Part shown: one piece after another, positions 3,446 through 60,282 of the stretch
How the letters are laid out: each line of letters opens with the position of its first letter
Position numbering within the stretch: the first letter of the stretch is position 1
Source of the DNA: Patescibacteria group bacterium
GTDB lineage: Bacteria > Patescibacteriota > Patescibacteriia > Magasanikbacterales > GWA2-37-8
Assembly (NCBI GenBank): GCA_004321885.1
Contig: SCQK01000007.1
Coordinates: forward strand, 128,001-192,000
Direction: 5' to 3'
DNA: 64,000 nt
Position numbers and translations under genes: made by a program
Notes under the pieces: model-generated
The model's input: the letters and a program-made list of their open reading frames with translations, nothing else
Databases searched by the model: none
Told to the model about the DNA's origin: nothing

Positions 3446-4529
3446 GCTTCTGTTAGGCATAGAGTCATCTTGCGACGATACTTCAGTGGCCCTGGTCGCC
3501 TGCGGCGAACGGGGCTGTTTTGTGGTTGCCGAAAAAACCGCTTCGCAAACCGCGCTCCATAAAAAATACGGGGGCGTGGTGCCGGAAATAGCCGGGCGGG
3601 CGCACGCGGAAAAAATCGTGCCCCTGATTGAGGCGGTTCTGCGAGGAAAAAAGCCGGATGTTATCGCCGTAACCGCCGGACCCGGATTGATTACCGGTTT
3701 GCTGGTTGGCGTGGAAGCGGCGCGCGTTTTGTCATACGCGTGGAATGTGCCGCTATTGGCGGTAAATCATATTGAAGGGCACATCTATTCCGTGGAATTG
3801 GAAAACGAAAAAATCAAGTTCCCCGCTCTCGCGCTTATTGCCAGCGGTGGTCATACCGAGCTGATTTTTATGAAAAACCACGGCCAGCACAAACTGCTTG
3901 GCGCCACGCGCGACGACGCGGCCGGCGAATGTTTTGACAAGGTCGCCAAACTGCTCGGTCTCCCCTACCCGGGCGGTCCGGAAATTTCTCGGCTGGCGAT
4001 TGGCGGCGACCCGGGCGCCATAAAATTTCCGCGGCCGATGATAGAAAGCGATAATTACGACTTCAGTTTTGCCGGATTAAAAACCGCGGCGCTGTATTGG
4101 TTAAGGGATAATGTCATTGCGAGGCCTGAAAGGCCGAAGCAATCCCCCACAATCAAGCAAGGGATTGCTTCGCTTCGTTCCACTTCGCTCGCAATGACAA
4201 TGAATGATTTCTGCGCCAGTTTTGAGCAAGCGATAGTAGACGTCTTGGTCGCGAAAACTCTGAAAGCGGCCAGACAATACAAACCGAAAACCGTTATTCT
4301 TGCTGGCGGGGTTTCGGCGAACAAGAAACTTCGCTCTGCGCTTGAAAAGGCAATAAAAACTCTCGCTCCAATTACCAATTTCCAATTACCAATTTCCAAT
4401 TATTGTATGGACAACGCGGCCATGCTCGCCGTGGCCGGATATTATCGCGCGAAGAAAAAAAATTTCACTGATTGGAAAAAAATCCAAGCTGACCCGAATT
4501 GGACGATTTCTGGATTCCCCCGTACTTAG
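3446..4529 (+). CDS. tsaD: tRNA N6-adenosine threonylcarbamoyltransferase TsaD (Kae1/TsaD family)
   Basis: MLLLGIESSCDDTSVALV...AVNHIEGHIY...GGVSAN. The start is at 3446, not the track's 3180, which would run through the tRNAs. It carries two in-frame repeat insertions (4112-4199 and 4368-4402), and its last codons and stop lie inside repeat 4512-4543. Confidence 0.9.
4112..4199. repeat. family C long palindromic element (TGTCATTGCGAGGCCTGAAAGGCCGAAGCAATCCC...GGGATTGCTTCG...GCAATGACA) inserted in-frame in tsaD
   Basis: A near-identical copy lies at 27761-27838, and a half copy at 59138-59165. Confidence 0.85.
4368..4402. repeat. family B heptamer array (CCAATT[A/T])5, the complement of (GGAAATT)n, in-frame in tsaD; encodes ITNFQLPISNY
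   Basis: Direct heptamer tandem array; the same unit is present at 26432, 28424, 28866 and 59164. Confidence 0.85.
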
Positions 4530-4543
4530 TCGGGGGAATGACA
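4512..4543. repeat. family C hairpin GGATTCCCCCGTACTTAGTCGGGGGAATGACA; supplies the last 5 codons and stop of tsaD and lies between tsaD and dnaE
   Basis: Identical copies at 26832-26863 and 33789-33819. Confidence 0.85.
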
Positions 4544-11143: not shown

Positions 11144-11170
11144 GGATCCTGAAACAAGTTCAGGATGACA
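11144..11170. repeat. family D hairpin GGATCCTGAAACAAGTTCAGGATGACA between pheT and pheS
   Basis: Reverse-orientation copy of the TCATCCTGAACTTGTTTCAGGATC unit found at 51263, 59817 and 29553. Confidence 0.8.
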
Positions 11171-18022: not shown

Positions 18023-18146
18023 ACTCCACCCCACCTCGCCTCCCCCTTGGAGAGGAAACAACGATTACCCCTCCCCAACCCTCCCCTTATAAATGACGAT
18101 TACCCCTCTCTAACTCTCCCCTTATAAAGGGGAGAGAAACGACGAC
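18023..18146. repeat. three family A repeats and half-repeats (18023-18060, 18066-18100, 18101-18146); the last supplies the C-terminus and stop of the phosphomannomutase gene
   Basis: tacccctctctaactctccccttataaaggggagagaaacgacgac. Confidence 0.8.
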
Positions 18147-19516
18147 ACTTCTTTTGTCTTATCGGTCATCAGCGACTCTGAACGCGCTTCCAAGTTGAGG
18201 CGCATTTTGTTTTCGGTGTTTGACGCGCGCACGTTAAACCACCAGTCCGGCCATTCAAAAGACAGCCCGTCAAAGTCATATTTCAAATTCGCGCCATACT
18301 TTTCCCGCAAAGCAACGAACACCGCCTGCTTGTCTTCCACCGCGAAATTGATTTCACCCGAATGAAAATACTTATACAAAGGCGCGCAATACTCGCTTAT
18401 CGTCTTCCCGCTCTCGGACAGCTCCTGCAAAATCTTCAAGAGCATTATCTCCGGCGCCTCAAAAGTGCCGTGCGGCATTTTCAAGAAAAAATGCCCGGAT
18501 GATTCGCCGGCGAACACAGCTCCGGTCTCGGCCATCTTTTCTTTTATCAGCGAATGCCCCACTTTGGTCACCATTGGTTTGCCGCCGGCCTCCACGATCA
18601 TGTCCTCGGTGATTTTGCCAGGCCGAACATCGTAGCAAATTGTCGCGCCCGGATACTCGCGCAAAAATATCTGCGCCAAAATGCCACGCACTATGGCCGG
18701 CTCTATTGTCTTGCCTTTTTCGTCAACAAAAAATACTCGGTCCGCGTCGCCATCAAGAGCCACGCCCAAATCAGCGCCGGTTTCAACAACTTTTTCTTGA
18801 AGCGCGCGGTTGTTTACATCTTTCAAAGGATCGGCCTCGTGATTTGGAAAATTACCGTCCAGTTCAAAATACAAAGGCACTAACTCGCACGGTAAATGTT
18901 TGAATAATTCTTCCATCAAAGGTCCGCCCATACCGTTGGCCGAATCAACCACCACTTTGAGTGGATTAATTTTCTTCACGTCCGCCTGGGTGAGAGCGAA
19001 GGCGATGTGATCCGCGATGACGTTTTCTTTTTTTGACAATACCCCCTTCTCACCTCCCCCTTGTAAAGGGGGAGGGATTGCGCCACCCGCGATCATATCG
19101 CGGATTTCCATTATTCCGGTATCTCCACTTATCGGACCGGCCGCGGCGCGCACCATCTTAAACCCGTTATACTTCGCCGGATTGTGTGAGGCCGATACTT
19201 GCAAGCCGCCGTCATAGCCGTAATGGGCCACGGAAAAATAAAAAGTCGGCGTGGAAACCAAACCAACGTCAATCACGTTCACGCCTTGCTCCAAAATTCC
19301 TTTGATAACCGCGTTTGCCAAAACCGGAGAAGAAGCGCGCATGTCGCGGCCCACAACGACTGTTACCCCTCCCTCACCCTCCCCTTGTAAAGGGGAGGGA
19401 GTGCGCCTGATAAACTCCGCGAACGCCCGCCCCACCTTAAAAGCCAAACCCTCGTTTAATTCATCCGGATACACCCCCCTGATGTCATAGGCCTTAAAAA
19501 TTTGTGCTGGAAACAT
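18122..19516 (-). CDS. phosphomannomutase/phosphoglucomutase family protein (alpha-D-phosphohexomutase)
   Basis: SASHNPAKYNGFK active-site loop and GVALDGDADR metal loop. It carries two in-frame family A insertions (19040-19083 and 19363-19405). Confidence 0.88.
   Translation of the reverse strand: MFPAQIFKAYDIRGVYPDELNEGLAFKVGRAFAEFIRRTPSPLQGEGEGGVTVVVGRDMRASSPVLANAVIKGILEQGVNVIDVGLVSTPTFYFSVAHYGYDGGLQVSASHNPAKYNGFKMVRAAAGPISGDTGIMEIRDMIAGGAIPPPLQGGGEKGVLSKKENVIADHIAFALTQADVKKINPLKVVVDSANGMGGPLMEELFKHLPCELVPLYFELDGNFPNHEADPLKDVNNRALQEKVVETGADLGVALDGDADRVFFVDEKGKTIEPAIVRGILAQIFLREYPGATICYDVRPGKITEDMIVEAGGKPMVTKVGHSLIKEKMAETGAVFAGESSGHFFLKMPHGTFEAPEIMLLKILQELSESGKTISEYCAPLYKYFHSGEINFAVEDKQAVFVALREKYGANLKYDFDGLSFEWPDWWFNVRASNTENKMRLNLEARSESLMTDKTKEVSSFLSPL
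19040..19083. repeat. family A hairpin inserted in-frame in the phosphomannomutase gene (encodes GGAIPPPLQGGGEKG)
   Basis: tacccccttctcacctcccccttgtaaagggggagggattgcg. Confidence 0.85.
19363..19405. repeat. family A hairpin inserted in-frame in the phosphomannomutase gene (encodes TPSPLQGEGEGGV)
   Basis: ttacccctccctcaccctccccttgtaaaggggagggagtgcg. Confidence 0.85.
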
Positions 19517-26326: not shown

Positions 26327-27759
26327 AAGATGGCTTTAAAACAATTTTTATCTGCTCAAATTGCGACGCGCAATTTACCAAGTGGGTGGGTAAATGTTTG
26401 GAATGCGGGAAGTGGGGAACAATTGAAAAATCCCAATTTCCAATTTCCAATTTCCAATCAAATTCCAAACTCCAAAATCCAAACACCCAAAATTATCCAC
26501 CAGTAACGACGAAAAGACTTTCAGAGATAGACAGCGCGGAAGCCAAAAGGATAAAAACAAACATTGATGAATTAGACAGAGTGCTTGGAGGGGGGCTCGT
26601 GCCGGGCTCCCTTGTTTTATTGGGCGGCGAGCCGGGCATCGGCAAATCCACTTTGGCAGCGCAATTGGCGGCCGCGATTCCCAACACCTTATATATTTCC
26701 GGCGAAGAATCCGCCGAACAGATTAAATTGCGCTTTGAGCGATTGGGGATTCCGGGTCAAGCCCGGAATGACAATAATGAGACCTTGCGCTTCGCGAACG
26801 CGACGAGCGTGGAGAGTGTGATAGCGGCCATGGATTCCCCCGTACTTAGTCGGGGGAATGACAGTAAAAACGAGACGGTCGGAATGACAAAACCACAACT
26901 CGTTATTGTTGACTCAATTCAGACAACGAGATCAGACGAAGTAGAGGGCGAGGCCGGAAGTATAAACCAAGTGCGGGCCTGCGCGGTTAAACTCATGGAA
27001 GCGGCAAAATCCACGGGCGTACCGATTGTTTTAATCGGCCAAGTGACCAAAGACGGCGCCGTGGCCGGCCCCAAAACCCTGGAACATCTGGTGGACACTG
27101 TGCTCTATCTGGAAGGCGACCGCTTTCACCAATTCAGAATCTTGCGCGCCGCCAAAAATCGCTTTGGCTCAACCGATGAAGTCGGAATTTTTTCCATGGA
27201 AGAAAACGGCCTGCGAGAAGTGAAAAATCCATCGGCCGCGTTTTTGTCCGGACGCGAAGAAAATGTGCCCGGCTCTTGCGTTACCTGCCTGATGGAAGGC
27301 ACCCGTCCCCTGCTGATTGAAGTGCAGGCGCTCGTAACAAAAACTAACTTCGGCTATCCCCAGCGCCGGGCCTCGGGCTTTGACCTAAACCGCTTGCAAG
27401 TGCTTATCGGCGTGCTGACCAAACGCGCCGGACTGCCGCTGGACACTTATGATGTATTTTTGAATGTCGTGGGCGGGATAAGCGCCGAGGAACCGGCCGT
27501 GGACTTGGCCGTGGTGCTCTCCATCGCTTCGGCCACGAAAAACAAACAACTGCCCAAGGGGCTGGCCGCTTTTGGCGAAGTGGGTTTGGGCGGCGAAGTG
27601 CGCGCCGTCAGCCAAGCCAAAAAACGTCTGGATGAAATCAAAAAAATGGGATTTGAATTCGCCGTGGTGCCGGCTTCTTCCGAAGAATACAAAGCGGGCG
27701 GCATCAAAATCGCGCCGGTAAAAAATGTGAAAGAATTAGTAGAAAGGATTGTCTTGTGA
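26323..27759 (+). CDS. radA: DNA repair protein RadA/Sms
   Basis: C4 zinc ribbon; RecA-like GGEPGIGKST Walker A; KNRFG motif; Lon-like C-terminus. It carries in-frame repeat insertions at 26432-26493, 26748-26773 and 26832-26863. Confidence 0.92.
   Translation: MKDGFKTIFICSNCDAQFTKWVGKCLECGKWGTIEKSQFPISNFQSNSKLQNPNTQNYPPVTTKRLSEIDSAEAKRIKTNIDELDRVLGGGLVPGSLVLLGGEPGIGKSTLAAQLAAAIPNTLYISGEESAEQIKLRFERLGIPGQARNDNNETLRFANATSVESVIAAMDSPVLSRGNDSKNETVGMTKPQLVIVDSIQTTRSDEVEGEAGSINQVRACAVKLMEAAKSTGVPIVLIGQVTKDGAVAGPKTLEHLVDTVLYLEGDRFHQFRILRAAKNRFGSTDEVGIFSMEENGLREVKNPSAAFLSGREENVPGSCVTCLMEGTRPLLIEVQALVTKTNFGYPQRRASGFDLNRLQVLIGVLTKRAGLPLDTYDVFLNVVGGISAEEPAVDLAVVLSIASATKNKQLPKGLAAFGEVGLGGEVRAVSQAKKRLDEIKKMGFEFAVVPASSEEYKAGGIKIAPVKNVKELVERIVL
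26432..26493. repeat. family B heptamer array (CCAATTT)n plus degenerate units, in-frame in radA (encodes FPISNFQSNSKLQNP...)
   Basis: cccaatttccaatttccaatttccaatcaaattccaaactccaaaatccaaacac. Confidence 0.85.
26748..26773. repeat. family C hairpin GGATTCCGGGTCAAGCCCGGAATGACA in-frame in radA
   Basis: Same subfamily as 34358-34383. Confidence 0.8.
26832..26863. repeat. family C hairpin GGATTCCCCCGTACTTAGTCGGGGGAATGACA in-frame in radA (encodes DSPVLSRGNDS)
   Basis: Identical to 4512-4543 and 33789-33819. Confidence 0.85.
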
Positions 27760-27838: not shown

Positions 27839-30013
27839 TTACTCCAAATGCACTGCATTCTCCCACTCTTTAATCTTCGCCGTTAAGGTCGGAAATTTCC
27901 CCAATCTCGGCGCCACTTGCCGCGCCGCCTCGCGCGCTTTTTTTATTATCTCTTTATCCGTCAGCTTGGCCAAACGCAAATTCATAAACCCGCTCTGGGC
28001 CGTGCCATAGACCTCGCCGGGCCCGCGCATTTCCAAATCCTTTTCCGCCAGCTTGAACCCGTCGTTATTTTTTTCAAAAAATCGCAGGCGCTCCAGGGCG
28101 CGCGGCGACTCCTGCTCCACGAACAAAAAACAATATGACTGATGAACCGAACGCCCCACCCGGCCGCGAAATTGGTGTAACTGGGCCAATCCAAACCTCT
28201 CGGCCCCCTCTATCATCATCACGCTGGTGTTTGGAATATCCACACCCACCTCCACCACAGACGTGGAAACCAAAATATCCAACTCGCGCTTCCTGAATTT
28301 TTCCATTGTCCCGTCTTTTTCTTTTGGTTTGAGGCGTCCATGCAAATATCCCACCCGCAAATCCGGAAATATATTTTTTGAAAGTTTTTCAAATTCTGAA
28401 AGCACCGATTTCTTGTCGTCTTTTGGAAATTGGAAATTGGAAATTGGAAATTCTTCGTTGTTTGCCCCAATTAAAGGGCAAACAACGAAGCACTGCCTGC
28501 CTTTTTTTACTTGTTCGCGGATAAAAGTGTACGCCTTGACGCGATTTACCGGCTCCACCAGCCGCGTCAAAATTTTCTTGCGGCCCGGCGGCAATTCGTT
28601 GATAATGGAAACATCCAGGTCGCCGTAAACCATGAGGGCCAGAGAGCGCGGTATCGGCGTGGCGGTCATGCTCAAAAAATGCGCGCCGCCTCCCTTTTCT
28701 TTTATCGTCTTTCTCTGCCCCACCCCGAAACGATGCTGTTCATCCACAATCACCAAACCCAATCTTTCAAACTCCACTCCTTCTGTCAGTAAAGCATGTG
28801 TGCCAATAATAATTTGAATATTATTACTCTTGATCTTTTCCAAAAAATCTTTTTTATTAAATTTTGAAAATTGGTCATTGGTCATTGATTGGAAATTGGA
28901 AATTGGAAATTGGGATTTTGAACCAGTCAATAAGCCCACTTTAACTTTATGCCCAAGAAGATTAACGATTGAATTATAATGTTGCACCGCAAGTATCTCG
29001 GTGGGCGCCATCAGCACGGCTTGGTAGCCATTCAAAGCCGCGTTGTACATGGCCATAGCCGCCACCACGGTCTTGCCCGAACCGACATCGCCCGACAGCA
29101 GGCGATTCATCGGCGTGGTTTTTTGCAAGTCCTGTAAAATTTCCCAGGCCGAAATTTTTTGCGTTTTGGTTAGTGTAAAAGGCAAACTCGCCACAAATTC
29201 CTTGATGGCGTTTTCGTTAAAAGCGAGGGACGGGGCTTTGGCGTCGGCTTTTTCCAGCCGCGACAGTTCGGCTTTAAGCTGAATCAAAAATAACTCATCA
29301 AATTTCAGACGCTCGGTGCTTTTGGCCAAATCAATTTCATCTTTGGGAAAGTGAATACCCTGCAAAGCCGATGATAAAGGCGCTAAATCATACTTGTCTA
29401 AAATTTCATCAGGCAGCCATTCTTGCATTGCGGCCGATAATACAATCACCTGGCTAACCAAAAAACGAATCTGTTTTTGGGTCAGCCCGGCCGTAAGCGG
29501 ATACATCGGCACCAGTCGCGCCGTGTGGGTCGTATACAAACCCTCCCCTTTCAGAGCCTGCCCTGAACTTGTTTCAGGGGGAGGGACAGAGGGTGGGGTA
29601 TTCACTCGCTCATACACCGGCCCAATCATCTGCGCCCCCAACATATCGGTCCGCGCCTTGCCCGACAAAAAAACCTCGTCCCCGGGCCTAAGCGTCTTGC
29701 CAATAAACGGCTGATTAAACCAGACCACGCGCAAACTACCGCTCGCGTCCGAAACCAGCGCTTCGGTGATGTTTTTTCTCTGACGCGGACTGCGCTTGTT
29801 GGCGATGAGCTCAACTTTGGCGCGCACTGTCACCGCCTCCCCGTGTTTCAGGTCGGCGATTTTTACCACGCTCCGAAAATCCTCGTAACGGAAAGGAAAA
29901 TAAAAAAGAAGGTCGGCCGCCGTGGCCACACCCAAACGCTCCAGCCGCTTGGCCGTGGTCTTGCCCACTCGGGAAAGTTGTGAGATTGGGGTGTTTAAGT
30001 TCATAATCAGCAT
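27839..30013 (-). CDS. recG: ATP-dependent DNA helicase RecG
   Basis: Wedge domain; DVGSGKT Walker A; DEQHRFG; helicase C motifs. It carries in-frame insertions of family B (28424-28454, 28866-28916) and a nested A/D repeat (29537-29607). Confidence 0.92.
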   Translation of the reverse strand: MLIMNLNTPISQLSRVGKTTAKRLERLGVATAADLLFYFPFRYEDFRSVVKIADLKHGEAVTVRAKVELIANKRSPRQRKNITEALVSDASGSLRVVWFNQPFIGKTLRPGDEVFLSGKARTDMLGAQMIGPVYERVNTPPSVPPPETSSGQALKGEGLYTTHTARLVPMYPLTAGLTQKQIRFLVSQVIVLSAAMQEWLPDEILDKYDLAPLSSALQGIHFPKDEIDLAKSTERLKFDELFLIQLKAELSRLEKADAKAPSLAFNENAIKEFVASLPFTLTKTQKISAWEILQDLQKTTPMNRLLSGDVGSGKTVVAAMAMYNAALNGYQAVLMAPTEILAVQHYNSIVNLLGHKVKVGLLTGSKSQFPISNFQSMTNDQFSKFNKKDFLEKIKSNNIQIIIGTHALLTEGVEFERLGLVIVDEQHRFGVGQRKTIKEKGGGAHFLSMTATPIPRSLALMVYGDLDVSIINELPPGRKKILTRLVEPVNRVKAYTFIREQVKKGRQCFVVCPLIGANNEEFPISNFQFPKDDKKSVLSEFEKLSKNIFPDLRVGYLHGRLKPKEKDGTMEKFRKRELDILVSTSVVEVGVDIPNTSVMMIEGAERFGLAQLHQFRGRVGRSVHQSYCFLFVEQESPRALERLRFFEKNNDGFKLAEKDLEMRGPGEVYGTAQSGFMNLRLAKLTDKEIIKKAREAARQVAPRLGKFPTLTAKIKEWENAVHLE
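28424..28454. repeat. family B (GGAAATT)4 array in-frame in recG (encodes EFPISNFQFP)
   Basis: ttggaaattggaaattggaaattggaaattc. Confidence 0.85.
28866..28916. repeat. family B heptamer array with TTGGTCA variants, in-frame in recG (encodes SQFPISNFQSMTNDQFS)
   Basis: gaaaattggtcattggtcattgattggaaattggaaattggaaattggga. Confidence 0.85.
29537..29607. repeat. family A hairpin carrying a nested family D hairpin (29553-29580) in its loop, all in-frame within recG
   Basis: caaaccctcccctttcaGAGCCTGCCCTGAACTTGTTTCAGGgggagggacagagggtggggtattc. Confidence 0.75.
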
Positions 30014-33788: not shown

Positions 33789-33819
33789 GATTCCCCCGTA
33801 CTTAGTCGGGGGAATGACA
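33789..33819. repeat. family C hairpin (AGATTCCCCCGTACTTAGTCGGGGGAATGACA) downstream of the tRNA
   Basis: Identical core to 4512 and 26832. Confidence 0.85.
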
Positions 33820-39067: not shown

Positions 39068-39739
39068 ATGACAAAATCAACCATACAAAAAATTGTATTC
39101 ACAATCATATTTGTAGCCATCGGCTTCGGCCTGATGCAAGTGCCATTTACCCAGCTGATAGGCTCAAAATTAAAATTCACTTTGTTTGATTTTTACGGCC
39201 CAATCGCCGGCGGATTTCTGGGTTCGGTTTGGGGTATGATTACGGTTTTGGCAATGCAAATCGCCAACTGGGCTTGGCACGGATTTAACACCGAAACAGC
39301 CACCCTTATTCGCTTTTTCCCCATGCTGTTCGCGGTTTTGTACTTTGCCAGAAAATCACGCGCCATTTTGGCAGTGCCGGTCATCGCCATGCTCGTGTTT
39401 TGGGCGCATCCCGAGGGCAGGCAGGCTTGGCACTTCGCTCTGTATTGGCTGATTCCTTTGGCAGCGCACTTTTTCCGAAATAAAATTTTGTTCGCGCGCG
39501 CTTTGGGCACGACCTTTACGGCCCACGCGGTGGGCGGCGCATTGTGGATTTGGTTTGTGCCCGGCATGAAGGCCGCGGCCTGGATAGGCCTCATTCCGGT
39601 GGTTTGGAAAGAACGCGGGCTGATGGCAATCGGCATTACCTTGTCTTTCGTCGTCTTCAATTTCCTCTTCAGCCTGGCCGCTAAAAAAATCCGGGGCCTG
39701 GACTTTCTGAAACTTCACCCAAAGTATTCGGTCAAATGA
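39068..39739 (+). CDS. polytopic membrane protein, possibly an ECF-transporter S-component-like protein (next to folC)
   Basis: Six to seven TM helices, about 220 aa, translationally coupled to folC. The family assignment is tentative. Confidence 0.35.
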   Translation: MTKSTIQKIVFTIIFVAIGFGLMQVPFTQLIGSKLKFTLFDFYGPIAGGFLGSVWGMITVLAMQIANWAWHGFNTETATLIRFFPMLFAVLYFARKSRAILAVPVIAMLVFWAHPEGRQAWHFALYWLIPLAAHFFRNKILFARALGTTFTAHAVGGALWIWFVPGMKAAAWIGLIPVVWKERGLMAIGITLSFVVFNFLFSLAAKKIRGLDFLKLHPKYSVK

Positions 39740-41115
39740 ACTTCCAAGAGGCCTACAATTACATAATCTCCCTGGCCAATATTCCGCGCAAAGAATACAT
39801 GGCCGACCCCAAACATTGCCCCTGGTACTTAAAACGGTTGAAGTTTTTTTTGCGTATTTTGGGAAATCCGGAGAAAAAAATACCCCACATCATACACGTT
39901 ACCGGCACCAGCGGCAAGGGTTCGGTCTGCCTGATGTTGGACTCCATTCTGCGTGAAGCGGCCCGCCACCGCGCCAAAAATTTTGGTGTGGTGGGCACGC
40001 TCACATCGCCTCACGCCTCGGCCATTATGGAGCGCTGGGAAGTAAACGGCCGGCCAATGCCTAAAAAAGAATTCGCGGCGCTGGTAGAAAAAATCAAGCC
40101 CAAACTGGACCAGTATATGCGCAAAACGCCGTATGACATGCTCGCCTACGGCGAACTGGCCACGGCTATGGCGCTTTACTATTTCGCCAAAAAAAAAATA
40201 GAATGGGCCGTGCTGGAAGTGGGCTGCGGCGGACGCTATGATTCCACCAATGTAATCCCGCGCAAAGATGTGGCCGTGATAACTAATATCGGCCTTGATC
40301 ATACGCAAACACTCGGCAATACCAAAGAAAAAATCGCCTATGAAAAAGCCGGCATTATCAAACGCGGATGCCAGGTGTTCACGATGGAAACAAACAAAAA
40401 AATTCTGCGCGTGATAGAAAAAGAATGCCAAAAAAATCACGCCCCGCTTAAAATTGTCTACCCCTTAGGCTGGCTCCATAGTTCCGCCAAAGGCGGACTG
40501 TGGAGCCAACGAATGCACTCTGGCTCCACAGCCCTTTGGGACTATGGAGCCAGCCGCCTCCCGGTTCTCGGCGCCCATCAACAAAAAAACGCGGCCCTCG
40601 CGGCCGCGGTGGCGCGTTCAATCGGCATCTCCGAAAAAGCAATCACGCGCGGCCTGGCCAAAGTAAAATTGCCAATCAGAATGGAAGTCGTTTCGCGCAA
40701 GCCCATAGTCATCTTAGACGGCGCGCACAACAAGGACAAAATGCAAACAACAGTGGAAGCAATCTCCTCCCCCTTTATAAGGGGGAGGCGTGGTGGGGGT
40801 AGGGGTAACATCCACCTCATCCTCGGCTTTGCCGACAATAAGGACTACCCGGCCATGCTCAAACAGCTCGCGGCGCTAAAACCAACCACCGTCGCCTGCA
40901 CCCGCTTCAGCCACAATTTCTTCCGCAAGGCCGCGGACCCCAAAATCCTGGCGGCCAAAATAAAAAAACTGCTTCCCCGCGCCAAAACCGAAATTTTTTT
41001 GGATGTTTTAGACGGCTTCAGCTGGAGCAAAAAACAAGCCGCGCCCAGCGACATTATCCTCTGCACCGGCTCCATATTCCTAAGCGGCGAATTGCGTCTC
41101 AAAATTATCAGGTGA
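39736..41115 (+). CDS. folC: folylpolyglutamate synthase/dihydrofolate synthase (Mur ligase family)
   Basis: HVTGTSGKGS P-loop; NIGLDH. It carries in-frame repeat insertions at 40468-40555 (family E) and 40762-40809 (family A). Confidence 0.85.
   Translation: MNFQEAYNYIISLANIPRKEYMADPKHCPWYLKRLKFFLRILGNPEKKIPHIIHVTGTSGKGSVCLMLDSILREAARHRAKNFGVVGTLTSPHASAIMERWEVNGRPMPKKEFAALVEKIKPKLDQYMRKTPYDMLAYGELATAMALYYFAKKKIEWAVLEVGCGGRYDSTNVIPRKDVAVITNIGLDHTQTLGNTKEKIAYEKAGIIKRGCQVFTMETNKKILRVIEKECQKNHAPLKIVYPLGWLHSSAKGGLWSQRMHSGSTALWDYGASRLPVLGAHQQKNAALAAAVARSIGISEKAITRGLAKVKLPIRMEVVSRKPIVILDGAHNKDKMQTTVEAISSPFIRGRRGGGRGNIHLILGFADNKDYPAMLKQLAALKPTTVACTRFSHNFFRKAADPKILAAKIKKLLPRAKTEIFLDVLDGFSWSKKQAAPSDIILCTGSIFLSGELRLKIIR
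40468..40555. repeat. family E double hairpin in-frame in folC (encodes GWLHSSAKGGLWSQRMHSGSTALWDYGASR)
   Basis: ggctggctccatagttccgccaaaggcggactgtggagcc...ctggctccacagccctttgggactatggagccagcc. Confidence 0.8.
40762..40809. repeat. family A hairpin in-frame in folC (encodes SPFIRGRRGGGRGN)
   Basis: tcctccccctttataagggggaggcgtggtgggggtaggggtaac. Confidence 0.8.
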
Positions 41116-50357: not shown

Positions 50358-51914
50358 TTAAAAATTTGTCAAAATATCTTTTATTAAAGGCACGATGATA
50401 TTTTTTTGATAGAAGTACGCGTTGGTTGGTTTTTTGGTAATAGGGAAGATTAAAGACGGCACCAACAATTCCTGACTCGCGTTGTCTTTATAAGTCCAAA
50501 TCTTTACCAGCTCCACGCTCGGGGTGCCCAGTTCAATTTTGACTACGCGGGCATTCGGGCCCTGCTCGGCGGCGTAAAACTCCTGACGCCAGCCCCCGGC
50601 CTCGGCCAGTTTTTGCAAACGGCTCGCGTCTTTTTCCGCGGCATAGCCCGAACTTTCATATTGCTGGCTGGTCAAGTTGTACACATTTTGCACCGTCAGG
50701 CCGTGCGCGTTCACGGCCACACTTAAACCACTTTTGTAACCAGACTCTTCATATATATTCTTGCCTTCCACTTTGAGCGGATAAATTACAGTGAGGGAAT
50801 CGGGCGCGTAATATTCGGCCGTACCAGAATCTTTTACAGCCGCCACTCCGTAACCGATCAGCCAGTCCTTTTGTATTTCGGGCGGGCCGTAGCTGTCGGT
50901 CGGTATGCCGTAGTCCCGCAAAAATTTATCGGCCGCCGCGATTATTTTATCGTCGCCCGGCAGATCCGAAACCCGCAAGGGTTTGTAGTACTCCGGAGAA
51001 ACCACCATATCGCTGGACCTTGTCCAATTGCTCCAATTCTGATTTATGGAAACCGAACTCTCATTCAAGTCAACATAGACCGAGTAGCCGCGGTCGCGAT
51101 TCTCGCTAAAACTGATGTTTTGCACCTTGATGCCGGAAAATTTGTTCCAATCAATGCCCAGCCGTGCGCCCGAAAGCAAGGAAGAAAGCTGGCCAAACGA
51201 AGCATCGCCGCCTTTGATTCTTTTCAGCACCTGCATCGTCCCGCTGTCATCCTGTCCACCATTGTCATCCTGAACTTGTTTCAGGATCTCCATTATCGGT
51301 TCGCCTTTATATGCATATTTATACACGTCATAAACCGGATAGTCGGGCGCTATCGTCTTGCCGGGTTCGGCAATGCCTGTGGCAACACCGGCGCTGCCCC
51401 GGCCATACGCGGCCACGGGGGCCGAAGGGGCTGGCGAGCCCAGGGCAATCTCCCTCTTCTCCTGTTTTTGCGCAGGCGCGGGTGCGGCCGCGTCCGGGCC
51501 GGCCGTTGCACCAGCCGCGGCTTTTTCTTCTAACAGCAGATTGCCAAACGCGTTGTCGGCCAGTTTGGTCACGCTCGTTTGCGCGTTCTTTAAATCGAAC
51601 AATCCGGGCCTGATATTATTTTTCACAAAAGAAAAAACCAGCAAAACCGAAGCCGCTGCCCCGGCGCCGATAAAAAGCCAGGAGAGCGGCTGAAAGCGCC
51701 GGGCCGGACGCGCCCGGGCCAAACGCGCGCCAGCTTCCAGCTCGTTGGCTCGCGTCAGTAAACGCTCGCGTAAAGCCAAACGAAATTTTTCATCAAACTT
51801 CGTGTCCGGCCGAGACGCCAGCAGTTCGTTGATAATTTTTATCACTTCCTGTTCGCGCGAACGCAACTCCGGCTCCATCGCATACAAATCGTTTAATATT
51901 TTTTGAATATCCAT
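50358..51914 (-). CDS. putative anti-sigma factor (N-terminal cytoplasmic helix, one TM, large extracytoplasmic domain)
   Basis: Overlaps the upstream ECF sigma gene; TM LSWLFIGAGAAASVLLVFSFV. It contains an in-frame family D repeat (51263-51293). Confidence 0.55.
   Translation of the reverse strand: MDIQKILNDLYAMEPELRSREQEVIKIINELLASRPDTKFDEKFRLALRERLLTRANELEAGARLARARPARRFQPLSWLFIGAGAAASVLLVFSFVKNNIRPGLFDLKNAQTSVTKLADNAFGNLLLEEKAAAGATAGPDAAAPAPAQKQEKREIALGSPAPSAPVAAYGRGSAGVATGIAEPGKTIAPDYPVYDVYKYAYKGEPIMEILKQVQDDNGGQDDSGTMQVLKRIKGGDASFGQLSSLLSGARLGIDWNKFSGIKVQNISFSENRDRGYSVYVDLNESSVSINQNWSNWTRSSDMVVSPEYYKPLRVSDLPGDDKIIAAADKFLRDYGIPTDSYGPPEIQKDWLIGYGVAAVKDSGTAEYYAPDSLTVIYPLKVEGKNIYEESGYKSGLSVAVNAHGLTVQNVYNLTSQQYESSGYAAEKDASRLQKLAEAGGWRQEFYAAEQGPNARVVKIELGTPSVELVKIWTYKDNASQELLVPSLIFPITKKPTNAYFYQKNIIVPLIKDILTNF
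51263..51293. repeat. family D hairpin TGTCATCCTGAACTTGTTTCAGGATCTCCAT in-frame in the anti-sigma gene (encodes EILKQVQDD)
   Basis: Identical to 59817-59848; there is also a TGTCATCCTG half-copy at 51245. Confidence 0.8.
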
Positions 51915-54680: not shown

Positions 54681-57600
54681 ATGCAAGCAAAAATTGAACT
54701 GCCCAAGGCGCCAATCGGCGCTATCACTCCCGCGCCCATCGTGGACGAGATGCGCAAATCATATCTGGAATACGCCATGAGCGTGATTGTTTCCCGCGCC
54801 CTGCCTGACGTGCGCGACGGCCTCAAACCGGTGCACCGCCGCATTTTGTACGCTATGTGGAACATGGGCCTGCGCCACAACGCCAAGTTCCGCAAATCGG
54901 CGCACGTGGTCGGCGAGGTGATGGCGAAATACCATCCGCATGGCGACTCGGCAATCTATGATTCCATGGTGCGCATGGCGCAGGATTTTTCCATGGGCCA
55001 CACGCTGGTGCACGGCCAAGGAAACTTTGGCTGTTTCACAAAAGATACCAAAGTCAAATTAACTGATGGCCGTGGTTTGAATTTTGAAGATTTAATCAAA
55101 GAATACGAATCGGGAAAGAAAAATTTTACTTACTCCATAAACAATTCCGGTCTAATTTCCATTGCCGAAATAAAACATCCCAGATTAACCAAAAAATCCG
55201 CTGAAATAATGAAGGTGGTATTGGATAACGGCGAAGAAATCAGATGTACCTTGAATCACCTGTTCATGTTAAGAAATGGAAGCTACAAGGAAGCAAAAGA
55301 TTTACAAGCCGGTGAATCGCTGATGCCCTTGTATCAAAAAATTTCCGAAAAAACCGACAAGTTAAACCGCGAAGGATACATCTTAATCCACCAAAACAAA
55401 ACCGGCGAATGGGTGCCGGCCCACCACTTGGCGGATAATTTTAATCTGAATGAAAAAAAATATGCTATAACGCGCGGCAGAGTTCGTCACCATGTTGATT
55501 ATAATAAATTAAATAATAACCCGGACAATATCATTCGCATGCGCTGGGGCGAACACTGGAAAATTCACTACTCGCACGCGAAAGAAATGCATCAAAATAA
55601 TGAGTACGTAAAAAAACTTGCCGATGGCAGAAAAAAATTCTGGGCCGATAATAAAAATAGGAAAAAATACGCGGAAAGAATTTCTGTCCGCAATATTAAG
55701 AATTGGAAAAATTCGGAATACCGCGAAAAAACGCGTCAATTCCTTAGCGAAACAAACAAGGAGTATTTAAAGAACCATCCGGAAAAAATAGCTGAAATTA
55801 AAAAGACGGCTTCGGCCACTTTTAAAAAATTATGGTCAATACCTTATTATAAAAACTTATTCCACGATAAGATCGTCGCCGCGAACAAAAAAAGAATATC
55901 CAACAATACTGGCAAGAAAAAATTCTTGACTATCTGCAAAGAGGCGTTAAATCGCTTTAAGACAATTAATGAACAATCATACGAGCATGCCCGAAAAAAA
56001 GTTTACCCATATGGACGCGCTACGATGTGGCAGACCGGCTTCAAAAAATACTTTGCTGAAAATTTGGATACACTGACGCAAGAAGCGGTAAAAAACCACA
56101 AGGTGACCAAAATTGAATTTTTGAATGAAAAAGAAGATGTGTTTGATATTACGATTGATAAGTGGCACAATTTCGCTTTGGCCTCCGGAATTTTTGTACA
56201 TAACTCAATGGACGGAGACAACGCCGCCGCCTACCGCTACACCGAAGCCAAATTGGAATCATTGGCCGAAGAAATACTCGCCGACATTGACAAGGAAACG
56301 GTAAACTTCGTCCCCAACTACGATGGCTCGCACAACGAACCGACCGTCCTGCCGGCCAAGGTCCCCAACCTCTTGCTGAACGGCACAGTAGGTATTGCCG
56401 TGGGCATGGCCACTTCCATTCCCCCGCACAATCTGGGCGAACTCTGCGACGGCCTGATAAAACTGATTGACGACCCGGAAACCACGGTGGAAGAACTCTC
56501 GGAAATAATCAAGGGGCCGGACTTCCCCACCGGCGGCATCATTTACAATAAAAAAGATATTTTGGCCGCCTATTCCACGGGTCGCGGCGGCATTGTCATA
56601 CGCGCCAAAGCGGAAATACAGGAAAGCAAATCAGGCCAGTTCCAAATCATAGTGAGCGAAGTGCCTTACCAAATAAACAAAGCGGCGCTGATAGAAAAAA
56701 TCGCCGAGCTGGTGCAGGAAAAAAAGATAGACGGCATCAAGGACCTGCGCGATGAAACCAACAAAGACGGCGTGCGCATCGTTATTGAACTAAAAAAAGA
56801 TTCATATCCGAAAAAAGTTTTAAACCGCCTGTTCCAGCTCACCGAACTGCAGACCACTTTCCACACGAACATGCTCGCTCTGGTGGACGGCATCCAGCCG
56901 CGCGTTTTGAATCTCAAAAACGTCTTGGAAGAATTCATCAAACACCGCCAGGAAATAATCCGCCGGCGCACCGAGTTTGACTTAAACAAGGCCAAGGAGC
57001 GCGCCCATATTTTGGAAGGCCTGAAAATGGCGCTGGACAAAATTGACGCCGTGATAAAAACCATCCGCGCTTCCAAAGACAAGGACGAGGCTAAAAAGAA
57101 CTTGATGTCCAAATTCAAATTCACCGACCGGCAGGCCGTGGCCATTTTGGAAATGAAACTGCAGCAGCTGGCCAATTTGGAAAGACAAAAAATTGAGGAT
57201 GAATTGAAAGAGAAAAAACTGCTGATAAAAGAGCTGGAATCAATACTGGCTTCCAAAACTAAAATTCTGCAAATAATCAAAAAAGACACGGCCGAGTTGA
57301 AGGCCAAATACGGCCGCGAACGCGGAACGCAAATAGTAAGCCACGGCGTGAAGGAATTCACCGTGGAGGACTTGGTGCCGAACGAACCCACGATTATAAT
57401 GATTACCACCGACGGCTATATCAAGCGCCTGCCGCCGGACACCTTCCGTCAGCAATCGCGCGGCGGTAAAGGCGTAATCGGCGTTACCACCAAAGAAGAA
57501 GACAGTGTGGAACACTTACAGGCAACCAACACGCACGACAATATCTTGTTCTTCACCAACCGCGGACGCGTATTCCAGTTGATGGCCTATGATATACCGC

Positions 57601-58319
57601 AAGCCAGCCGCACGGCCAAGGGGCAGGCTCTAGTTAATTTTCTGCAACTGGCGCCCAATGAAAAAGTGACGGCCTTGCTGGGCATGAGCGAGCTGGAAAA
57701 AATTAAATTCCTGGTCATGGTGACGCGCCAAGGGCTGATTAAAAAAACCGCGCTGGAAGATTTTGCTAATGTGCGCAAGAGCGGTCTTATCGCCATCAAA
57801 CTGAAACCGAACGACAATCTGGAATGGGTCAAGCCATCCACCGGCGCGGATGAAATATCCATCGTCACTAAAAAGGGTCAGGCTATCCGATTTAAGGAAA
57901 AAGACGTGCGGCCAATGGGGCGCGGGGCCAGCGGCGTGCGCGGCGTGCGCTTGCACACGGACGACGAAGTGATTTGTATGGATATCGTTGACCCGAAAAA
58001 CGTCTCGCTGGAGTTGTTTATTGTGGGCGAAAACGGTCTGGGCAAACGCACTCCCCTGGCGCAATACAAAGTGCAAGGACGCGGGGGCAGTGGCATCAAG
58101 ACCGCGGCCATCACGGATAAAACCGGATTCCTTATCCACGCCAAGGTCATAGACAAAGTGGAATCGGCCGAGCACGATTTGATACTGATGTCGGCCAAGG
58201 GCCAGGTTATCCGCTTGCCATACAAATCTGTTTCGGTCTCGGGTCGCGCCACCCAGGGCGTGCGCCTGATGCGCTTCAAAGAGGGCGGCGACAAAGTGGG
58301 AAGCGTGACGTTGTTGTAA
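54681..58319 (+). CDS. gyrA: DNA gyrase subunit A interrupted by an in-frame intein (aa 118-508)
   Basis: N-extein ...HGQGNFG, then the intein, then C-extein [17 protein letters not shown] (catalytic Tyr region), GyrA box and a C-terminal beta-pinwheel. Confidence 0.93.
55032..56204 (+). mobile_element. GyrA intein (391 aa) with an HNH-type homing-endonuclease domain
   Basis: Begins with Cys (CFTKDTKV), ends ...GIFVHN, followed by a +1 Ser. An internal HNH motif [28 protein letters not shown] is present. Exactly 1173 nt, in-frame. Confidence 0.85.
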
Positions 58320-59432: not shown

Positions 59433-59524
59433 ATTAGCCCCATTTTACCCCAACTCTCGCCAAAAAGCAATTTGAGCTCAACTACTTGCAAAAATTGAGA
59501 ATTTAATATATGATTACAAGCGTT

Positions 59525-59579
59525 TAATACCCCTCCCATGCCCCTCCCCTAAAAGGGGAGGGATGAAAAGTGGGGTTGC
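59525..59579. repeat. family A extended hairpin upstream of rpmF
   Basis: taatacccctcccatgcccctcccctaaaaggggagggatgaaaagtggggttgc. Confidence 0.85.
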
Positions 59580-59591
59580 TAATTTTATTCT

Positions 59592-59810
59592 ATGGGTCTT
59601 CCCGGACATCGCCGAACCTCTTCGGACAAACGGCGCCGCTCGGCTCATTTTGCTTTGACCGAGGTCAACGCGCAAAAATGCCCCAAATGCGGCACGGCCA
59701 TTTTGCCCCATCGTGTTTGCGCTTTTTGCGGCACATACAAAGGCCGCCAAGTGATTGACGTGAGCAAGCGCGACGTCAGAGGCAAAAGACGGGCAAAGAA
59801 AAACAAATGA
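59592..59810 (+). CDS. rpmF: 50S ribosomal protein L32 (zinc-ribbon type)
   Basis: [17 protein letters not shown]...[25 protein letters not shown]; C4 ribbon. Confidence 0.85.
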
Positions 59811-59816
59811 CACAAA

Positions 59817-59848
59817 GCGTCATCCTGAACTTGTTTCAGGATCTCCAT
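59817..59848. repeat. family D hairpin GCGTCATCCTGAACTTGTTTCAGGATCTCCAT between rpmF and nusB
   Basis: Identical to 51263-51293. Confidence 0.85.
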
Positions 59849-59856
59849 TTTATTCT

Positions 59857-60282
59857 ATGTCAAACCGCCATTTAGCCAGAAGCATAGCCATGCAAGCTCT
59901 GTTTGAATGGGATTTCCGCGGGCAACCGCCGGAATTTTTGGAACAGACAATAGCGCGCGACCTGGAAGAATTCGGTCCGGGCCTTGATGAACAAAAATTC
60001 GCGGAAAAAATCACCGAGGAGGTGCAAAAACACATTGGCGAAATAGACGCCCTGATAACAAAATACGCGCCCCAGTGGCCGATTGAGCAAATCACCGTGA
60101 TTGACAGAAACGTTCTGCGCATCGGCATCTATGAATTAAAATTCGGCGAAGGCGTGCCCCCGAAAGTGGCCATCAACGAAGCGATTGAACTGGCGAAAAG
60201 TTTCGGCGGCCCGTCTTCGGGCAAATTTGTCAACGGCGTGCTGGGCGCGATTTACAACGACATGGAGAAGCCGAAAGAATAA
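59857..60282 (+). CDS. nusB: transcription antitermination factor NusB
   Basis: [14 protein letters not shown]...NGVLGAI pattern. Confidence 0.85.

What the first reader, a model, noticed from the sequence alone, without database searches (positions are those of the whole stretch)
29537..29607. A repeat nested inside a repeat inside recG
A family A hairpin within the recG ORF carries, inside its own loop, a family D element (GCCTGCCCTGAACTTGTTTCAGG, 29553-29580), and recG still reads through in frame. This documents successive insertions and shows that family D can target family A hairpins, which hints at a hairpin-targeted insertion mechanism.
Basis: seen in the sequence. Interest (0 to 1): 0.5.

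Follow-up and report, generated by a model that had tools for sequence, protein, structure and literature searches.

The report
Hairpin nested in triplex repeat, recG
A 60-base copy of a known G/C-rich "triplex motif" repeat (BoxC/PIT/TM type) sits in frame in a floppy surface loop of the RecG helicase of a Patescibacteria genome. It carries in its own loop the 17-base core of a second hairpin repeat, which is a real but modest curiosity and does not prove hairpin-targeted insertion.

Summary
Arms CCCTCCCC (29541-29548) and GGGGAGGG (29578-29585) enclose a 29-nt loop. That loop holds CCTGAACTTGTTTCAGG (29562-29578), which matches three other window copies exactly. recG (27839-30013, minus strand, 724 aa) stays open with all helicase motifs.

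"Family A" is not just a hairpin. It is a three-block Y-R-R' motif of the BoxC/PIT/TM class (Holder 2015), with 12 copies in the window and none in shuffles.

The composite adds 19 codons to a loop that is 4-5 residues long in most of 120 relatives and is disordered in an AlphaFold model.

The outer-only state exists at the same loop in at least four scattered RecG lineages. Each carries its own genome's sub-variant, and two reading frames are used, so these were independent hits.

The inner piece shares only the core of family D: none of the 8 flanking bases of the canonical 25-mer match. It adds 22-23 nt to a usual loop, which would shift the frame.

A near-twin composite lies between genes in a Dadabacteria genome. 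Sphingomonads carry the D hairpin in the other TM loop.

Nesting is therefore real. In-situ succession and active hairpin targeting remain unproven, because survivorship alone gives p of about 0.1. I rate it a new variant of a known kind, of moderate interest.

The parts
27839..30013 (-). recG coding sequence, 724 aa, intact
   Evidence: ORF list and translation. 100% identical to an NCBI RecG of a Patescibacteria group bacterium. E = 1.7e-151 to T. maritima RecG 1GM5. The AF2 model matches 1GM5 with TM 0.67.
29541..29600 (+). Whole composite repeat: a three-block triplex-type motif (family A = BoxC/PIT/TM class) with an expanded first loop. On the coding (minus) strand it reads TACCCCACCC-TCTGT-CCCTCCCC-[29 nt]-GGGGAGGG.
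   Evidence: Y-R-R' scan (l1 = 29, l2 = 5, 8/8 mirror triplets). Comparison with 11 other window copies. Pattern as in Holder et al. 2015, PMC4666352.
29541..29548 (+). Y block CCCTCCCC (pyrimidine arm of the Watson-Crick hairpin)
29549..29577 (+). Loop 1, 29 nt: TTTCAG + AGCCTGCCCTGAACTTG + TTTCAG. All other copies have 3-9 nt here.
29549..29554 (+). First copy of the 6-nt direct repeat TTTCAG at the loop start
   Evidence: Read from the sequence
29572..29577 (+). Second copy of TTTCAG. It is also part of the right arm of the family D core.
   Evidence: Read from the sequence
29555..29561 (+). AGCCTGC: 7 nt explained by neither the canonical family A nor the canonical family D. GCCTG[C/T] is shared with the Dadabacteria composite.
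29562..29578 (+). 17-nt palindromic core of family D (CCTGAA-CTTGT-TTCAGG). Its last G overlaps the first G of block R1.
   Evidence: 4 exact copies in the window, 0.14 expected
29561..29579 (+). Inner hairpin as it would fold: 7-bp stem CCCTGAA / TTCAGGG with loop CTTGT
   Evidence: DNA and RNA folds. The fold energy of the 83-nt stretch is not exceptional against shuffles (z = -1.3 and -1.1).
29578..29585 (+). R1 block GGGGAGGG (purine arm)
29586..29590 (+). Loop 2, ACAGA
29591..29600 (+). R2 block GGGTGGGG(TA), a mirror repeat of R1 and the potential third strand. It is the 5' box TACCCCACCC on the coding strand.
29534..29590 (-). The 19 codons (S142-Y160) that are gapped in more than 50% of 120 RecG homologues. 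This is the net insertion as placed by the alignment.
   Evidence: AF2 pLDDT is below 50 for residues 139-165.
11145..11169 (-). Canonical family D 25-mer GTCATCCTGAACTTGTTTCAGGATC, between the pheT and pheS genes
51264..51288 (+). Canonical family D 25-mer, in frame inside ORF 50358-51914 (minus strand), reading ...[10 protein letters not shown]...
59819..59843 (+). Canonical family D 25-mer, intergenic, upstream of nusB

Best explanation
What it is (shown). Positions 29541-29600 are one copy of this genome's own G/C-rich three-block repeat. It has a pyrimidine block (CCCTCCCC), its complement (GGGGAGGG) and a mirror copy of the latter (GGGTGGGG). This is the architecture described as BoxC / PIT / 'TM' intrastrand triplex motifs. 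The copy lies in frame in recG. It encodes part of a disordered loop at the C-terminal edge of the wedge domain, a loop that is 4-5 residues long in most relatives. The first loop of the motif is enlarged from the usual 3-9 nt to 29 nt. The extra sequence holds the 17-nt palindromic core of the 25-nt GTCAT...ATC hairpin repeat (family D) plus 7 unexplained bases. The composite adds 19 sense codons, and RecG keeps every conserved motif.

How it got there (inferred). Such structure-forming repeats are copied into many places in these genomes, and no transposase was found in the window's ORFs. Copies persist in genes only where the protein tolerates them. This one short RecG loop has therefore been hit independently in at least four lineages by TM repeats and in others by different repeats.

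The inner piece was most likely not delivered by transposition of an intact D element. It lacks both conserved D termini and is bracketed by a 6-nt direct repeat (TTTCAG), one copy of which is D's own arm. This fits a short templated insertion: replication stalls at the hairpin or triplex, the nascent end re-pairs by microhomology with a D hairpin elsewhere, copies about 20 nt, and returns.

A 22-23-nt addition would break the frame, and similar composites exist outside genes and as multi-copy units in other phyla. The nesting therefore probably arose in a non-coding copy, and the finished composite was then copied into recG in one in-frame step. This last point is the least certain.
For: Identity of the outer element:
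- There are 12 Y-R-R' motifs in the window and 0 in 20 shuffles. The recG copy has 8/8 mirror triplets.
- The recG copy shows the same 5' box, spacer and stem as the other window copies.
- It matches the published TM_ECO pattern CCCTCNCCC-N3-6-GGGNGAGGG-N3-GGGNGAGGG (PMC4666352).

Inner core:
- The 17-nt core occurs as four exact copies, with 0.14 expected.
- None of the 8 flanking positions of the canonical 25-mer match.

Tolerated loop:
- The alignment of 120 RecG sequences shows the insertion site.
- AF2 pLDDT is below 50 for residues 139-165, between strands 133-136 and 165-169.
- The model matches 1GM5.

Independent hits:
- Insert-bearing RecGs are scattered on an NJ tree.
- Each insert matches its own genome's sub-variant, and two different frames are used.
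- GTCATTGCGAG...CTCGCAATGAC doublets sit at the same loop without TM.

Composites elsewhere:
- Dadabacteria L007 is intergenic and has D in loop 1 with the same GCCTGY flank.
- Sphingomonad loci L009-L011 have D in loop 2.

Other points:
- No transposase or HUH domain was found in about 50 window ORFs.
- TM motifs are linked to local genomic instability, have no associated mobility genes, and block polymerase in vitro (PMC4666352).
Against: - No closely related recG allele could be found. The nearest homologue is 68% identical, and a domain-only query failed. The order of events was therefore not observed.
- Template switching is inferred from junction anatomy in a single case.
- The donor of the 7 unexplained bases (AGCCTGC) is unknown.
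- A 5-nt ancestral loop, as in the window copy at 59541, would allow an in-frame +24 step in situ.
- Only 64 kb of a contig of about 214 kb was examined, so a transposase or other composite copies may lie elsewhere in the genome.
- The fold energy of the region is not exceptional against shuffles.
- Triplex formation was not tested.
Confidence: 0.55

Rival explanations
1. Family A inserted into recG first. A family D element later transposed specifically into the single-stranded loop of that hairpin, through a structure-targeted insertion mechanism.
For: - The outer-only state exists at the same RecG loop in other lineages.
- A second loop-1 nest occurs in a non-coding region of a Dadabacteria genome, and loop-2 nests occur in sphingomonads. 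All have D in the same orientation relative to the TM.
- Small hairpins nested in the loops of larger GTCAT-type units are also seen in the P0079 recG.
- IS elements that target REP hairpins are a known precedent (PMC1525189).
Against: - The inner piece has neither D terminus: none of the 8 flank positions match.
- The junctions differ between the window, L007 and L009-L011.
- The added length over the common 7-nt loop is 22 nt, a frameshift.
- Only one further loop-1 nest was found in 185,579 species genomes with the pattern used, and none in the metagenome scan.
- D-type elements enter the same RecG loop without family A.
- A survivorship null gives p of about 0.11.
- No candidate enzyme was found in the window.
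Confidence: 0.2
2. Two unrelated, untargeted insertion events whose nesting is a survivorship effect. Inside an essential gene, a second insertion can persist only where the protein is already indifferent, and the first insert enlarges exactly that region.
For: - The loop is a repeated landing site for several repeat families in 120 homologues.
- It is disordered in the model.
- The two other low-confidence loops of RecG are also insertion-rich.
- If D persists only in 4.7 kb of tolerated sequence, the chance that 1 of 4 cores lies in a TM loop is about 0.11, and in any part of a TM about 0.30.
Against: - It does not explain nests in non-coding DNA (L007) or multi-copy composites in sphingomonads.
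- It does not explain the missing D termini or the shared GCCTGY flank.
- It has the same frame problem as any in-situ two-step model.
Confidence: 0.25
3. Chance resemblance or local evolution. The loop merely happens to contain a palindrome that resembles family D.
For: Only the palindromic core is shared. Short palindromes can arise by local inverted duplication.
Against: - There is 17/17 identity to three other copies, with 0.14 matches expected even at 3 mismatches or fewer.
- The same core sits in the same place in the Dadabacteria composite.
- The same 25-mer is found in several phyla.
Confidence: 0.02
4. Assembly artefact: a chimeric join at a short repeat in a metagenome-assembled genome.
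For: The source is a MAG, and repeats are classic misassembly points.
Against: - The shared repeat is only 17 nt.
- Both flanks are continuous recG in one frame, and they align with homologues on both sides.
- The insert has the complete architecture of a TM copy.
Confidence: 0.02

Closest known systems
BoxC / PIT / 'TM_ECO' G/C-rich class II intrastrand triplex motifs (Bachellier 1990s; Hoyne & Maher 2000; Holder et al. 2015, PMC4666352)
   Same: Same three-block design: a C-rich block, a complementary purine block and a mirror G-rich block, each 8-9 nt with short loops. Near-identical sequence: the P0053 recG copy reads CCCTCTCCC-GAC-GGGAGAGGG-ACGGA-GGGTGAGG. These motifs are multi-copy, found in many phyla, have no linked transposase, and are associated with local genomic instability.
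   Different: In E. coli K-12 the motif is reported as always intergenic, with loop 1 of 3-6 nt. Here at least 4 of 12 window copies are in frame inside housekeeping genes. The recG copy has a 29-nt loop 1 that holds another repeat's hairpin. The stems are the CCCTCCCC sub-variant and loop 2 is 5 nt.
Rickettsia palindromic elements (RPE; Ogata et al. 2000, recalled from own knowledge; RPEs are mentioned in PMC1779305)
   Same: Palindromic repeats inserted in frame into conserved protein genes. They add a peptide at a surface position without destroying the protein.
   Different: RPEs are 100-150 bp and restricted to Rickettsia. They are unrelated in sequence and are not three-block motifs. I know of no RPE carrying a second repeat in its loop.
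REP / BIME / REPIN elements with RAYT (Y1 HUH) transposases (PMC3116915, PMC3333891, PMC3479197)
   Same: Short hairpin repeats with a conserved flanking box. They combine into mosaics and are thought to move as single-stranded hairpins.
   Different: There is no GTAG box and no RAYT or other HUH gene in the window. REPs are lineage-specific and extragenic, whereas these repeats are shared across phyla and enter genes.
IS elements that insert into REP hairpins (IS110/IS1111 family; Tobes & Pareja 2006, PMC1525189; bridge-RNA work, PMC11208160)
   Same: A precedent for one mobile sequence using another repeat's palindrome as its target.
   Different: Those are full insertion sequences with a recombinase gene and defined ends. 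Here the inner piece is 17-24 nt with no conserved ends and no enzyme.

Membership tests
BoxC/PIT/TM intrastrand triplex motif | Three consecutive blocks: a pyrimidine block, a complementary purine block, and a third block that mirrors the purine block (G opposite G, A or T opposite A) | tested here: met
   In the recG copy, CCCTCCCC and GGGGAGGG are 8/8 complementary, and GGGTGGGG forms 8/8 mirror triplets. The window holds 12 such motifs against 0 in 20 shuffles.
BoxC/PIT/TM intrastrand triplex motif | G/C-rich blocks of the form CCCTCNCCC / GGGNGAGGG (9 nt) | tested here: inconclusive
   The window sub-variant is CCCTCCCC(TT)/(AA)GGGGAGGG, close to the published pattern but not identical. 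Copies in the related genome L001 fit it exactly.
BoxC/PIT/TM intrastrand triplex motif | Short loops (loop 1 of 3-6 nt, loop 2 of 3 nt) | tested here: not met
   The recG copy has a loop 1 of 29 nt and a loop 2 of 5 nt. The other window copies have loop 1 of 3-9 nt. The long loop is the anomaly under study, so this reflects the inner addition and is not evidence against membership of the outer blocks.
BoxC/PIT/TM intrastrand triplex motif | Intergenic location (always so in E. coli K-12) | tested here: not met
   The copies in recG, in the PGM/PMM gene (2 copies) and in the FolC-like gene are in frame inside ORFs.
BoxC/PIT/TM intrastrand triplex motif | [quoted passage not shown] | not testable with these tools
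   This needs CD, NMR or footprinting, as in PMC4666352.
Family D (25-nt GTCAT-hairpin-ATC repeat of this genome) | Palindromic core CCTGAA-CTTGT-TTCAGG | tested here: met
   17/17 identity
Family D (25-nt GTCAT-hairpin-ATC repeat of this genome) | Conserved termini GTCAT and ATC, which extend the stem to 8 bp | tested here: not met
   The recG copy has CCTGC and GGG in those positions, so 0 of 8 match. The Dadabacteria composite keeps one terminus, ATCT.
MITE / transposon-derived element | Terminal inverted repeats plus target-site duplication, and a cognate transposase somewhere | tested here: inconclusive
   A 6-nt direct repeat TTTCAG brackets the inner 17 nt, but one copy belongs to the D core itself. 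No transposase domain was found in the window ORFs. The rest of the genome was not seen.
REP/RAYT system | A GTAG-type box next to the hairpin, and a RAYT gene flanked by REPs | tested here: not met
   There is no such box in either family and no Y1/HUH hit in the window. The window covers only part of the genome.
Rfam RNA families | A match to a curated covariance model | tested here: not met
   Only tRNAs pass the gathering threshold. Nothing near threshold was found around 29450-29700 or 59480-59900.

The most novel reading that the evidence does not exclude
The 25-nt GTCAT-hairpin-ATC repeats and the BoxC/TM triplex motifs would form a modular, transposase-free system of structure-forming DNA shared across phyla. 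Hairpin modules would be copied preferentially into the single-stranded loops of triplex motifs, always in one orientation, when replication stalls there. The resulting composites would then spread as units, even into permissive loops of essential genes such as recG in Patescibacteria.
Probability: 0.15. Interest if true: 0.7.

Novelty: new variant of a known kind. Interest (0 to 1): 0.42.

Why it matters
BoxC/PIT/TM motifs have been known for about 30 years. Their origin, their mode of spread and their function are all unknown, and in E. coli they are reported only between genes.

Here they sit in frame in housekeeping genes of a small Patescibacteria genome. They have hit one short RecG loop independently in several lineages. 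One copy carries a second, equally widespread hairpin repeat in its loop.

If the loop of a triplex or hairpin motif is a preferred acceptor for other hairpin modules, this would give a concrete, testable handle on how these transposase-less repeats are generated and spread.

If it is not, the case remains a clean example of how permissive protein loops filter and accumulate selfish or structure-prone DNA.

Tried and rejected
Searches that led nowhere:
- Close recG alleles. The full-length search gave a nearest relative at only 68% identity. A wedge-domain-only query returned one hit at 49%. No intermediate alleles are available.
- A three-frame peptide query of the composite. The word index found no candidates.
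- A metagenome scan for arm-core-arm. It gave two hits, and both are canonical D-like hairpins flanked by chance C and G runs, not nests.
- Extending the contig beyond the window. One end is not on record. The other end gave only a 2.8-kb Logan contig.
- A literature search for the family D sequence or its peptides returned nothing. A search for in-frame palindromic elements in the Candidate Phyla Radiation returned nothing specific.

Explanations considered and rejected:
- An Rfam family. Only tRNAs were found, and nothing near threshold at the element.
- A nearby transposase or RAYT. There is no such Pfam domain in about 50 ORFs.
- An exceptional fold energy. The z-scores of -1.3 (DNA) and -1.1 (RNA) are not significant for this G/C-run-rich composition.
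- A shared ancestral insertion in all insert-bearing RecGs. This is rejected because the bearers are scattered on the tree, use different frames, and carry genome-specific sub-variants.
- A simple target-site-duplication model in situ. A 6-nt loop plus 23 nt would frameshift.
Full report
**1. What is in the sequence**

recG occupies 27839-30013 on the minus strand as a single 724-codon frame. On the plus strand, 29541-29548 (CCCTCCCC) and 29578-29585 (GGGGAGGG) form a perfect 8-bp inverted repeat separated by 29 nt.

Inside that loop, 29562-29578 is CCTGAACTTGTTTCAGG. This 17-mer occurs exactly four times in the window: 11148 (minus strand), 29562, 51269 and 59824. There are no additional matches at 1-3 mismatches, and 0.14 are expected by chance.

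The observation therefore stands.

One qualification applies. The three other copies share a 25-mer, GTCATCCTGAACTTGTTTCAGGATC. The recG copy matches it only over the central 17 nt, and all eight flanking positions differ.

**2. What "family A" really is**

I extracted every C-rich/G-rich hairpin in the window. The family has a third, conserved part. On the strand that reads TACCCCnCCC-(3-5 nt)-CCTCCCC(C)TT-NNN-AAGGGG(G)AGG, a C-rich box precedes the hairpin.

Read on the other strand, this is a pyrimidine block, its purine complement, and a second G-rich block that mirrors the first. A scan for this Y-R-R' design finds 12 copies in the window and none in 20 shuffles.

The recG copy scores 8/8 mirror triplets. 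It is the only copy with a long first loop: 29 nt, against 3-9 nt in the others.

A literature search by sequence led to Holder et al. 2015 (PMC4666352). This is the G/C-rich class II "intrastrand triplex motif", first noticed as BoxC, then described as PIT elements and later as TM_ECO. According to that paper:
- The pattern is CCCTCNCCC-N3-6-GGGNGAGGG-N3-GGGNGAGGG.
- There are 3610 copies in 262 proteobacterial genomes, and related motifs are abundant in cyanobacteria.
- The motif is always intergenic in E. coli K-12.
- It is never linked to transposases.
- It is associated with local genomic instability.
- Its origin is unknown.

Copies in a related Patescibacteria contig fit that pattern almost to the letter. 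An example is CCCTCTCCC-GAC-GGGAGAGGG-ACGGA-GGGTGAGG in the P0053 recG. The outer element is therefore a known kind of repeat. Its presence in frame inside genes is the departure from what is published.

**3. Where it sits in RecG**

The organism is a Patescibacteria (Magasanikbacteria-like) MAG, and the nearest RecG in 5.8 billion proteins is only 68% identical.

In an alignment of 120 homologues, most read YEKx-xKxx-TTHTARLVP. The window protein has 19 extra residues there, S142-Y160, within ...VNTPPSVPPPETSSGQALKGEGLYTT....

An AlphaFold model built on 62 sequences has a mean pLDDT of 81. It places residues 139-165 as a coil with pLDDT below 50, between the last wedge-domain strand (133-136) and strand 165-169. 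The model superposes on T. maritima RecG 1GM5 with E = 2e-46 and TM 0.67. In that structure the equivalent stretch is the short segment AEVTPKEGEY.

All invariant helicase residues of the family are present. The insert is thus in a permissive surface loop. Two further low-confidence loops (372-378 and 517-530) are also insertion-rich across the family.

**4. The "outer only" state exists, but through independent hits**

At the same loop, P0053 reads TSPSVPLPSGEG, P0063 and P0084 read RP[YH]P[DN]PLLQGEGT, and P0107 reads HPAIPLKGEE. P0067 carries three hairpins. Their DNA shows complete TM motifs with short loops (aligned by eye).

These proteins are scattered on a neighbour-joining tree among insert-free sisters. 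The elements are read in two different frames: ACC|CCA|CCC in the window and P0053, and A|CCT|CAC|CCT in P0063, P0084 and P0107. Each insert also matches the sub-variant found elsewhere in its own genome. The window has TACCCC...CCCTCCCC, and L001 has GACCTCACCC...CCCTCTCCC.

The loop has therefore been colonised at least four times independently by TM motifs. It has also been colonised by GTCATTGCGAG...CTCGCAATGAC doublets in P0043, P0048 and P0079, with no TM present. The P0079 version has extra small hairpins inside the loops of its units, so loop expansion by nested hairpins is not unique to the window.

**5. Is the inner piece an inserted family D element?**

It is D-derived, given the 17/17 identity, but it is not an intact D. 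Both conserved termini are missing.

Loop 1 reads TTTCAG + AGCCTGCCCTGAACTTG + TTTCAG, which is a 6-nt direct repeat around 17 nt. One repeat copy is D's own right arm. Seven bases (AGCCTGC) belong to neither family and are unique in the window.

Relative to the usual 7-nt loop the addition is 22 nt, and relative to a TTTCAG loop it is 23 nt. Either would frameshift recG. Only a 5-nt ancestral loop, as in the copy at 59541, gives an in-frame +24.

A scan of one genome per species (185,579 species) for arm...D core...arm gave five hits:
- One is a near-twin of the recG composite in an intergenic mosaic of a Dadabacteria MAG (L007, around 3997-4072). It reads CACCCCACCC-TTGA-CCCTCCCC-CTTTAGAT-CCTGAAACAAGTTCAGG-ACAGGC-GG-GGGGAGGGG. 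It keeps one canonical D terminus and shares the odd GCCTG[C/T] flank.
- Three are a sphingomonad repeat with the D hairpin in the other TM loop, between the third block and the hairpin (L009-L011, from two genomes).
- One is a chance flank.

The metagenome scan added nothing real. In all three configurations, D has the same orientation relative to the TM.

The association between D hairpins and TM loops therefore recurs and can propagate as a unit. However, it is rare, and its junctions are not constant.

**6. Is targeting demonstrated?**

It is not. If D landed uniformly, the chance that at least 1 of 4 window copies lies in a TM loop is about 0.008. If D can persist only in non-coding plus already-inserted sequence (4.7 kb of the window), that chance is about 0.11, and about 0.30 for any part of a TM.

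The non-coding Dadabacteria nest and the constant orientation keep the targeting idea alive, but only as a hypothesis.

**7. Mechanism I consider most likely**

The shown steps are the identity of both parts, the in-frame location in a disordered loop, the recurrent independent colonisation of that loop, and the existence of composites elsewhere.

The inferred steps are as follows. The inner piece arose by a short templated insertion. Replication stalled at the hairpin or triplex, and the nascent end re-paired through the TTTCAG/CTGAAA microhomology with a D hairpin. This explains the missing termini and the direct repeat. It also fits the published link between TM motifs, polymerase blockage in vitro and local instability (PMC4666352).

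Frame arithmetic and the multi-copy sphingomonad composites make it somewhat more likely that the nest formed in a non-coding copy and then entered recG as one 57-nt in-frame unit. This seems more likely than recG passing through an outer-only stage. I put about 0.85 on the descriptive part, about 0.35 on template switching, and about 0.45 on one-step arrival.

**8. Context and other checks**

No Rfam family matches either repeat. No transposase, HUH or integrase domain occurs in about 50 window ORFs, all of which are ordinary housekeeping genes.

Family D's exact 25-mer is also present in plasmids of cultured Sphingobium, Novosphingobium and Sphingomonas. Near-identical copies occur in Sulfurovum and Treponema, and in Sulfurovum the copy is in frame in a CDS. 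D is therefore a real, cross-phylum repeat and not a MAG artefact. I found no paper that describes it.

The predicted nested fold exists, but its energy is not exceptional for this composition.

**9. Verdict**

The outer repeat belongs to a known class (BoxC/PIT/TM) in an unreported setting: in frame in genes, with an expanded loop. The claims of successive insertion in situ and of hairpin targeting are not established.

This is a new variant of a known kind, of moderate interest. The more notable by-products are two. One is the repeated independent colonisation of a single RecG loop. The other is the cross-phylum modular association of two transposase-less structured repeats.

Noticed in passing
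window 18122-19516 (minus strand), elements at 19364-19397 and 19040-19073: A phosphoglucomutase/phosphomannomutase gene carries two complete TM (family A) motifs in frame. They encode TPSPLQGEGEGG at aa 39-50 and PPPLQGGGEKGV at aa 148-159.
   Followed up: partly
window 39736-41115 (plus strand), element at 40766-40799: A FolC/Mur-ligase-like gene carries a TM motif in frame between its middle and C-terminal domains, encoding SSPFIRGRRGGGRG.
   Followed up: partly
window 50358-51914 (minus strand), element at 51264-51288: A canonical family D 25-mer lies in frame in a 518-aa ORF downstream of an ECF sigma factor gene, reading ...[19 protein letters not shown].... It is followed by a 9-nt direct repeat, CAGGATGAC, 9 nt further on.
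   Followed up: no
window 54681-58319 (plus strand): The GyrA gene (1212 aa) contains an intein. Pfam Intein_splicing matches aa 134-508.
   Followed up: no
window 27839-30013, RecG aa 370-380 and 517-530: Two further variable linkers of RecG contain FPISNFQ-type low-complexity stretches. They are highly length-variable in homologues and have low pLDDT in the model.
   Followed up: partly
L001 10001-12463 (P0053 recG, 820 aa); also L001 4843 and 14038: This related recG carries three TM motifs, at 10419 and at 11405/11434 (the latter two as an inverted pair). Neighbouring genes carry TM motifs as well, so in-frame TM insertion is widespread in this clade.
   Followed up: partly
L014 (P0079 recG) and L015 (P0048 recG), same loop as the window insert: GTCATTGCGAG...GCAATCCC / GGGATTGC...CTCGCAATGAC inverted doublets are inserted in frame. 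The L014 version has extra small hairpins (TCGCC-TAA-GGCGA and GGTCGCC-TCA-GGCGACC) nested in the loops of its units.
   Followed up: partly
L007 3990-4260 (Dadabacteria CADEFK010000135.1): An intergenic mosaic of several different GTCAT-hairpin-ATC elements lies directly next to the nested TM/D composite. The arrangement is reminiscent of BIME-like mosaics.
   Followed up: no
plasmid records NZ_CP017077.1, NZ_CP018821.1, NZ_CP060123.1 and others; L017 (Sulfurovum NZ_CP087125.1, 388407-388434): The exact 25-nt family D sequence of this Patescibacteria MAG occurs in plasmids of cultured sphingomonads. In Sulfurovum a 96% copy lies in frame in a 4Fe-4S protein gene, beside a second GTCAT-type hairpin. 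The cross-phylum identity is unexplained.
   Followed up: partly
window 4515-4538, 26835-26858, 33791-33814: Three identical copies of another hairpin, TTCCCCCGTACTTAGTCGGGGGAA, lie at gene ends. This may be a terminator-like or separate repeat family.
   Followed up: no
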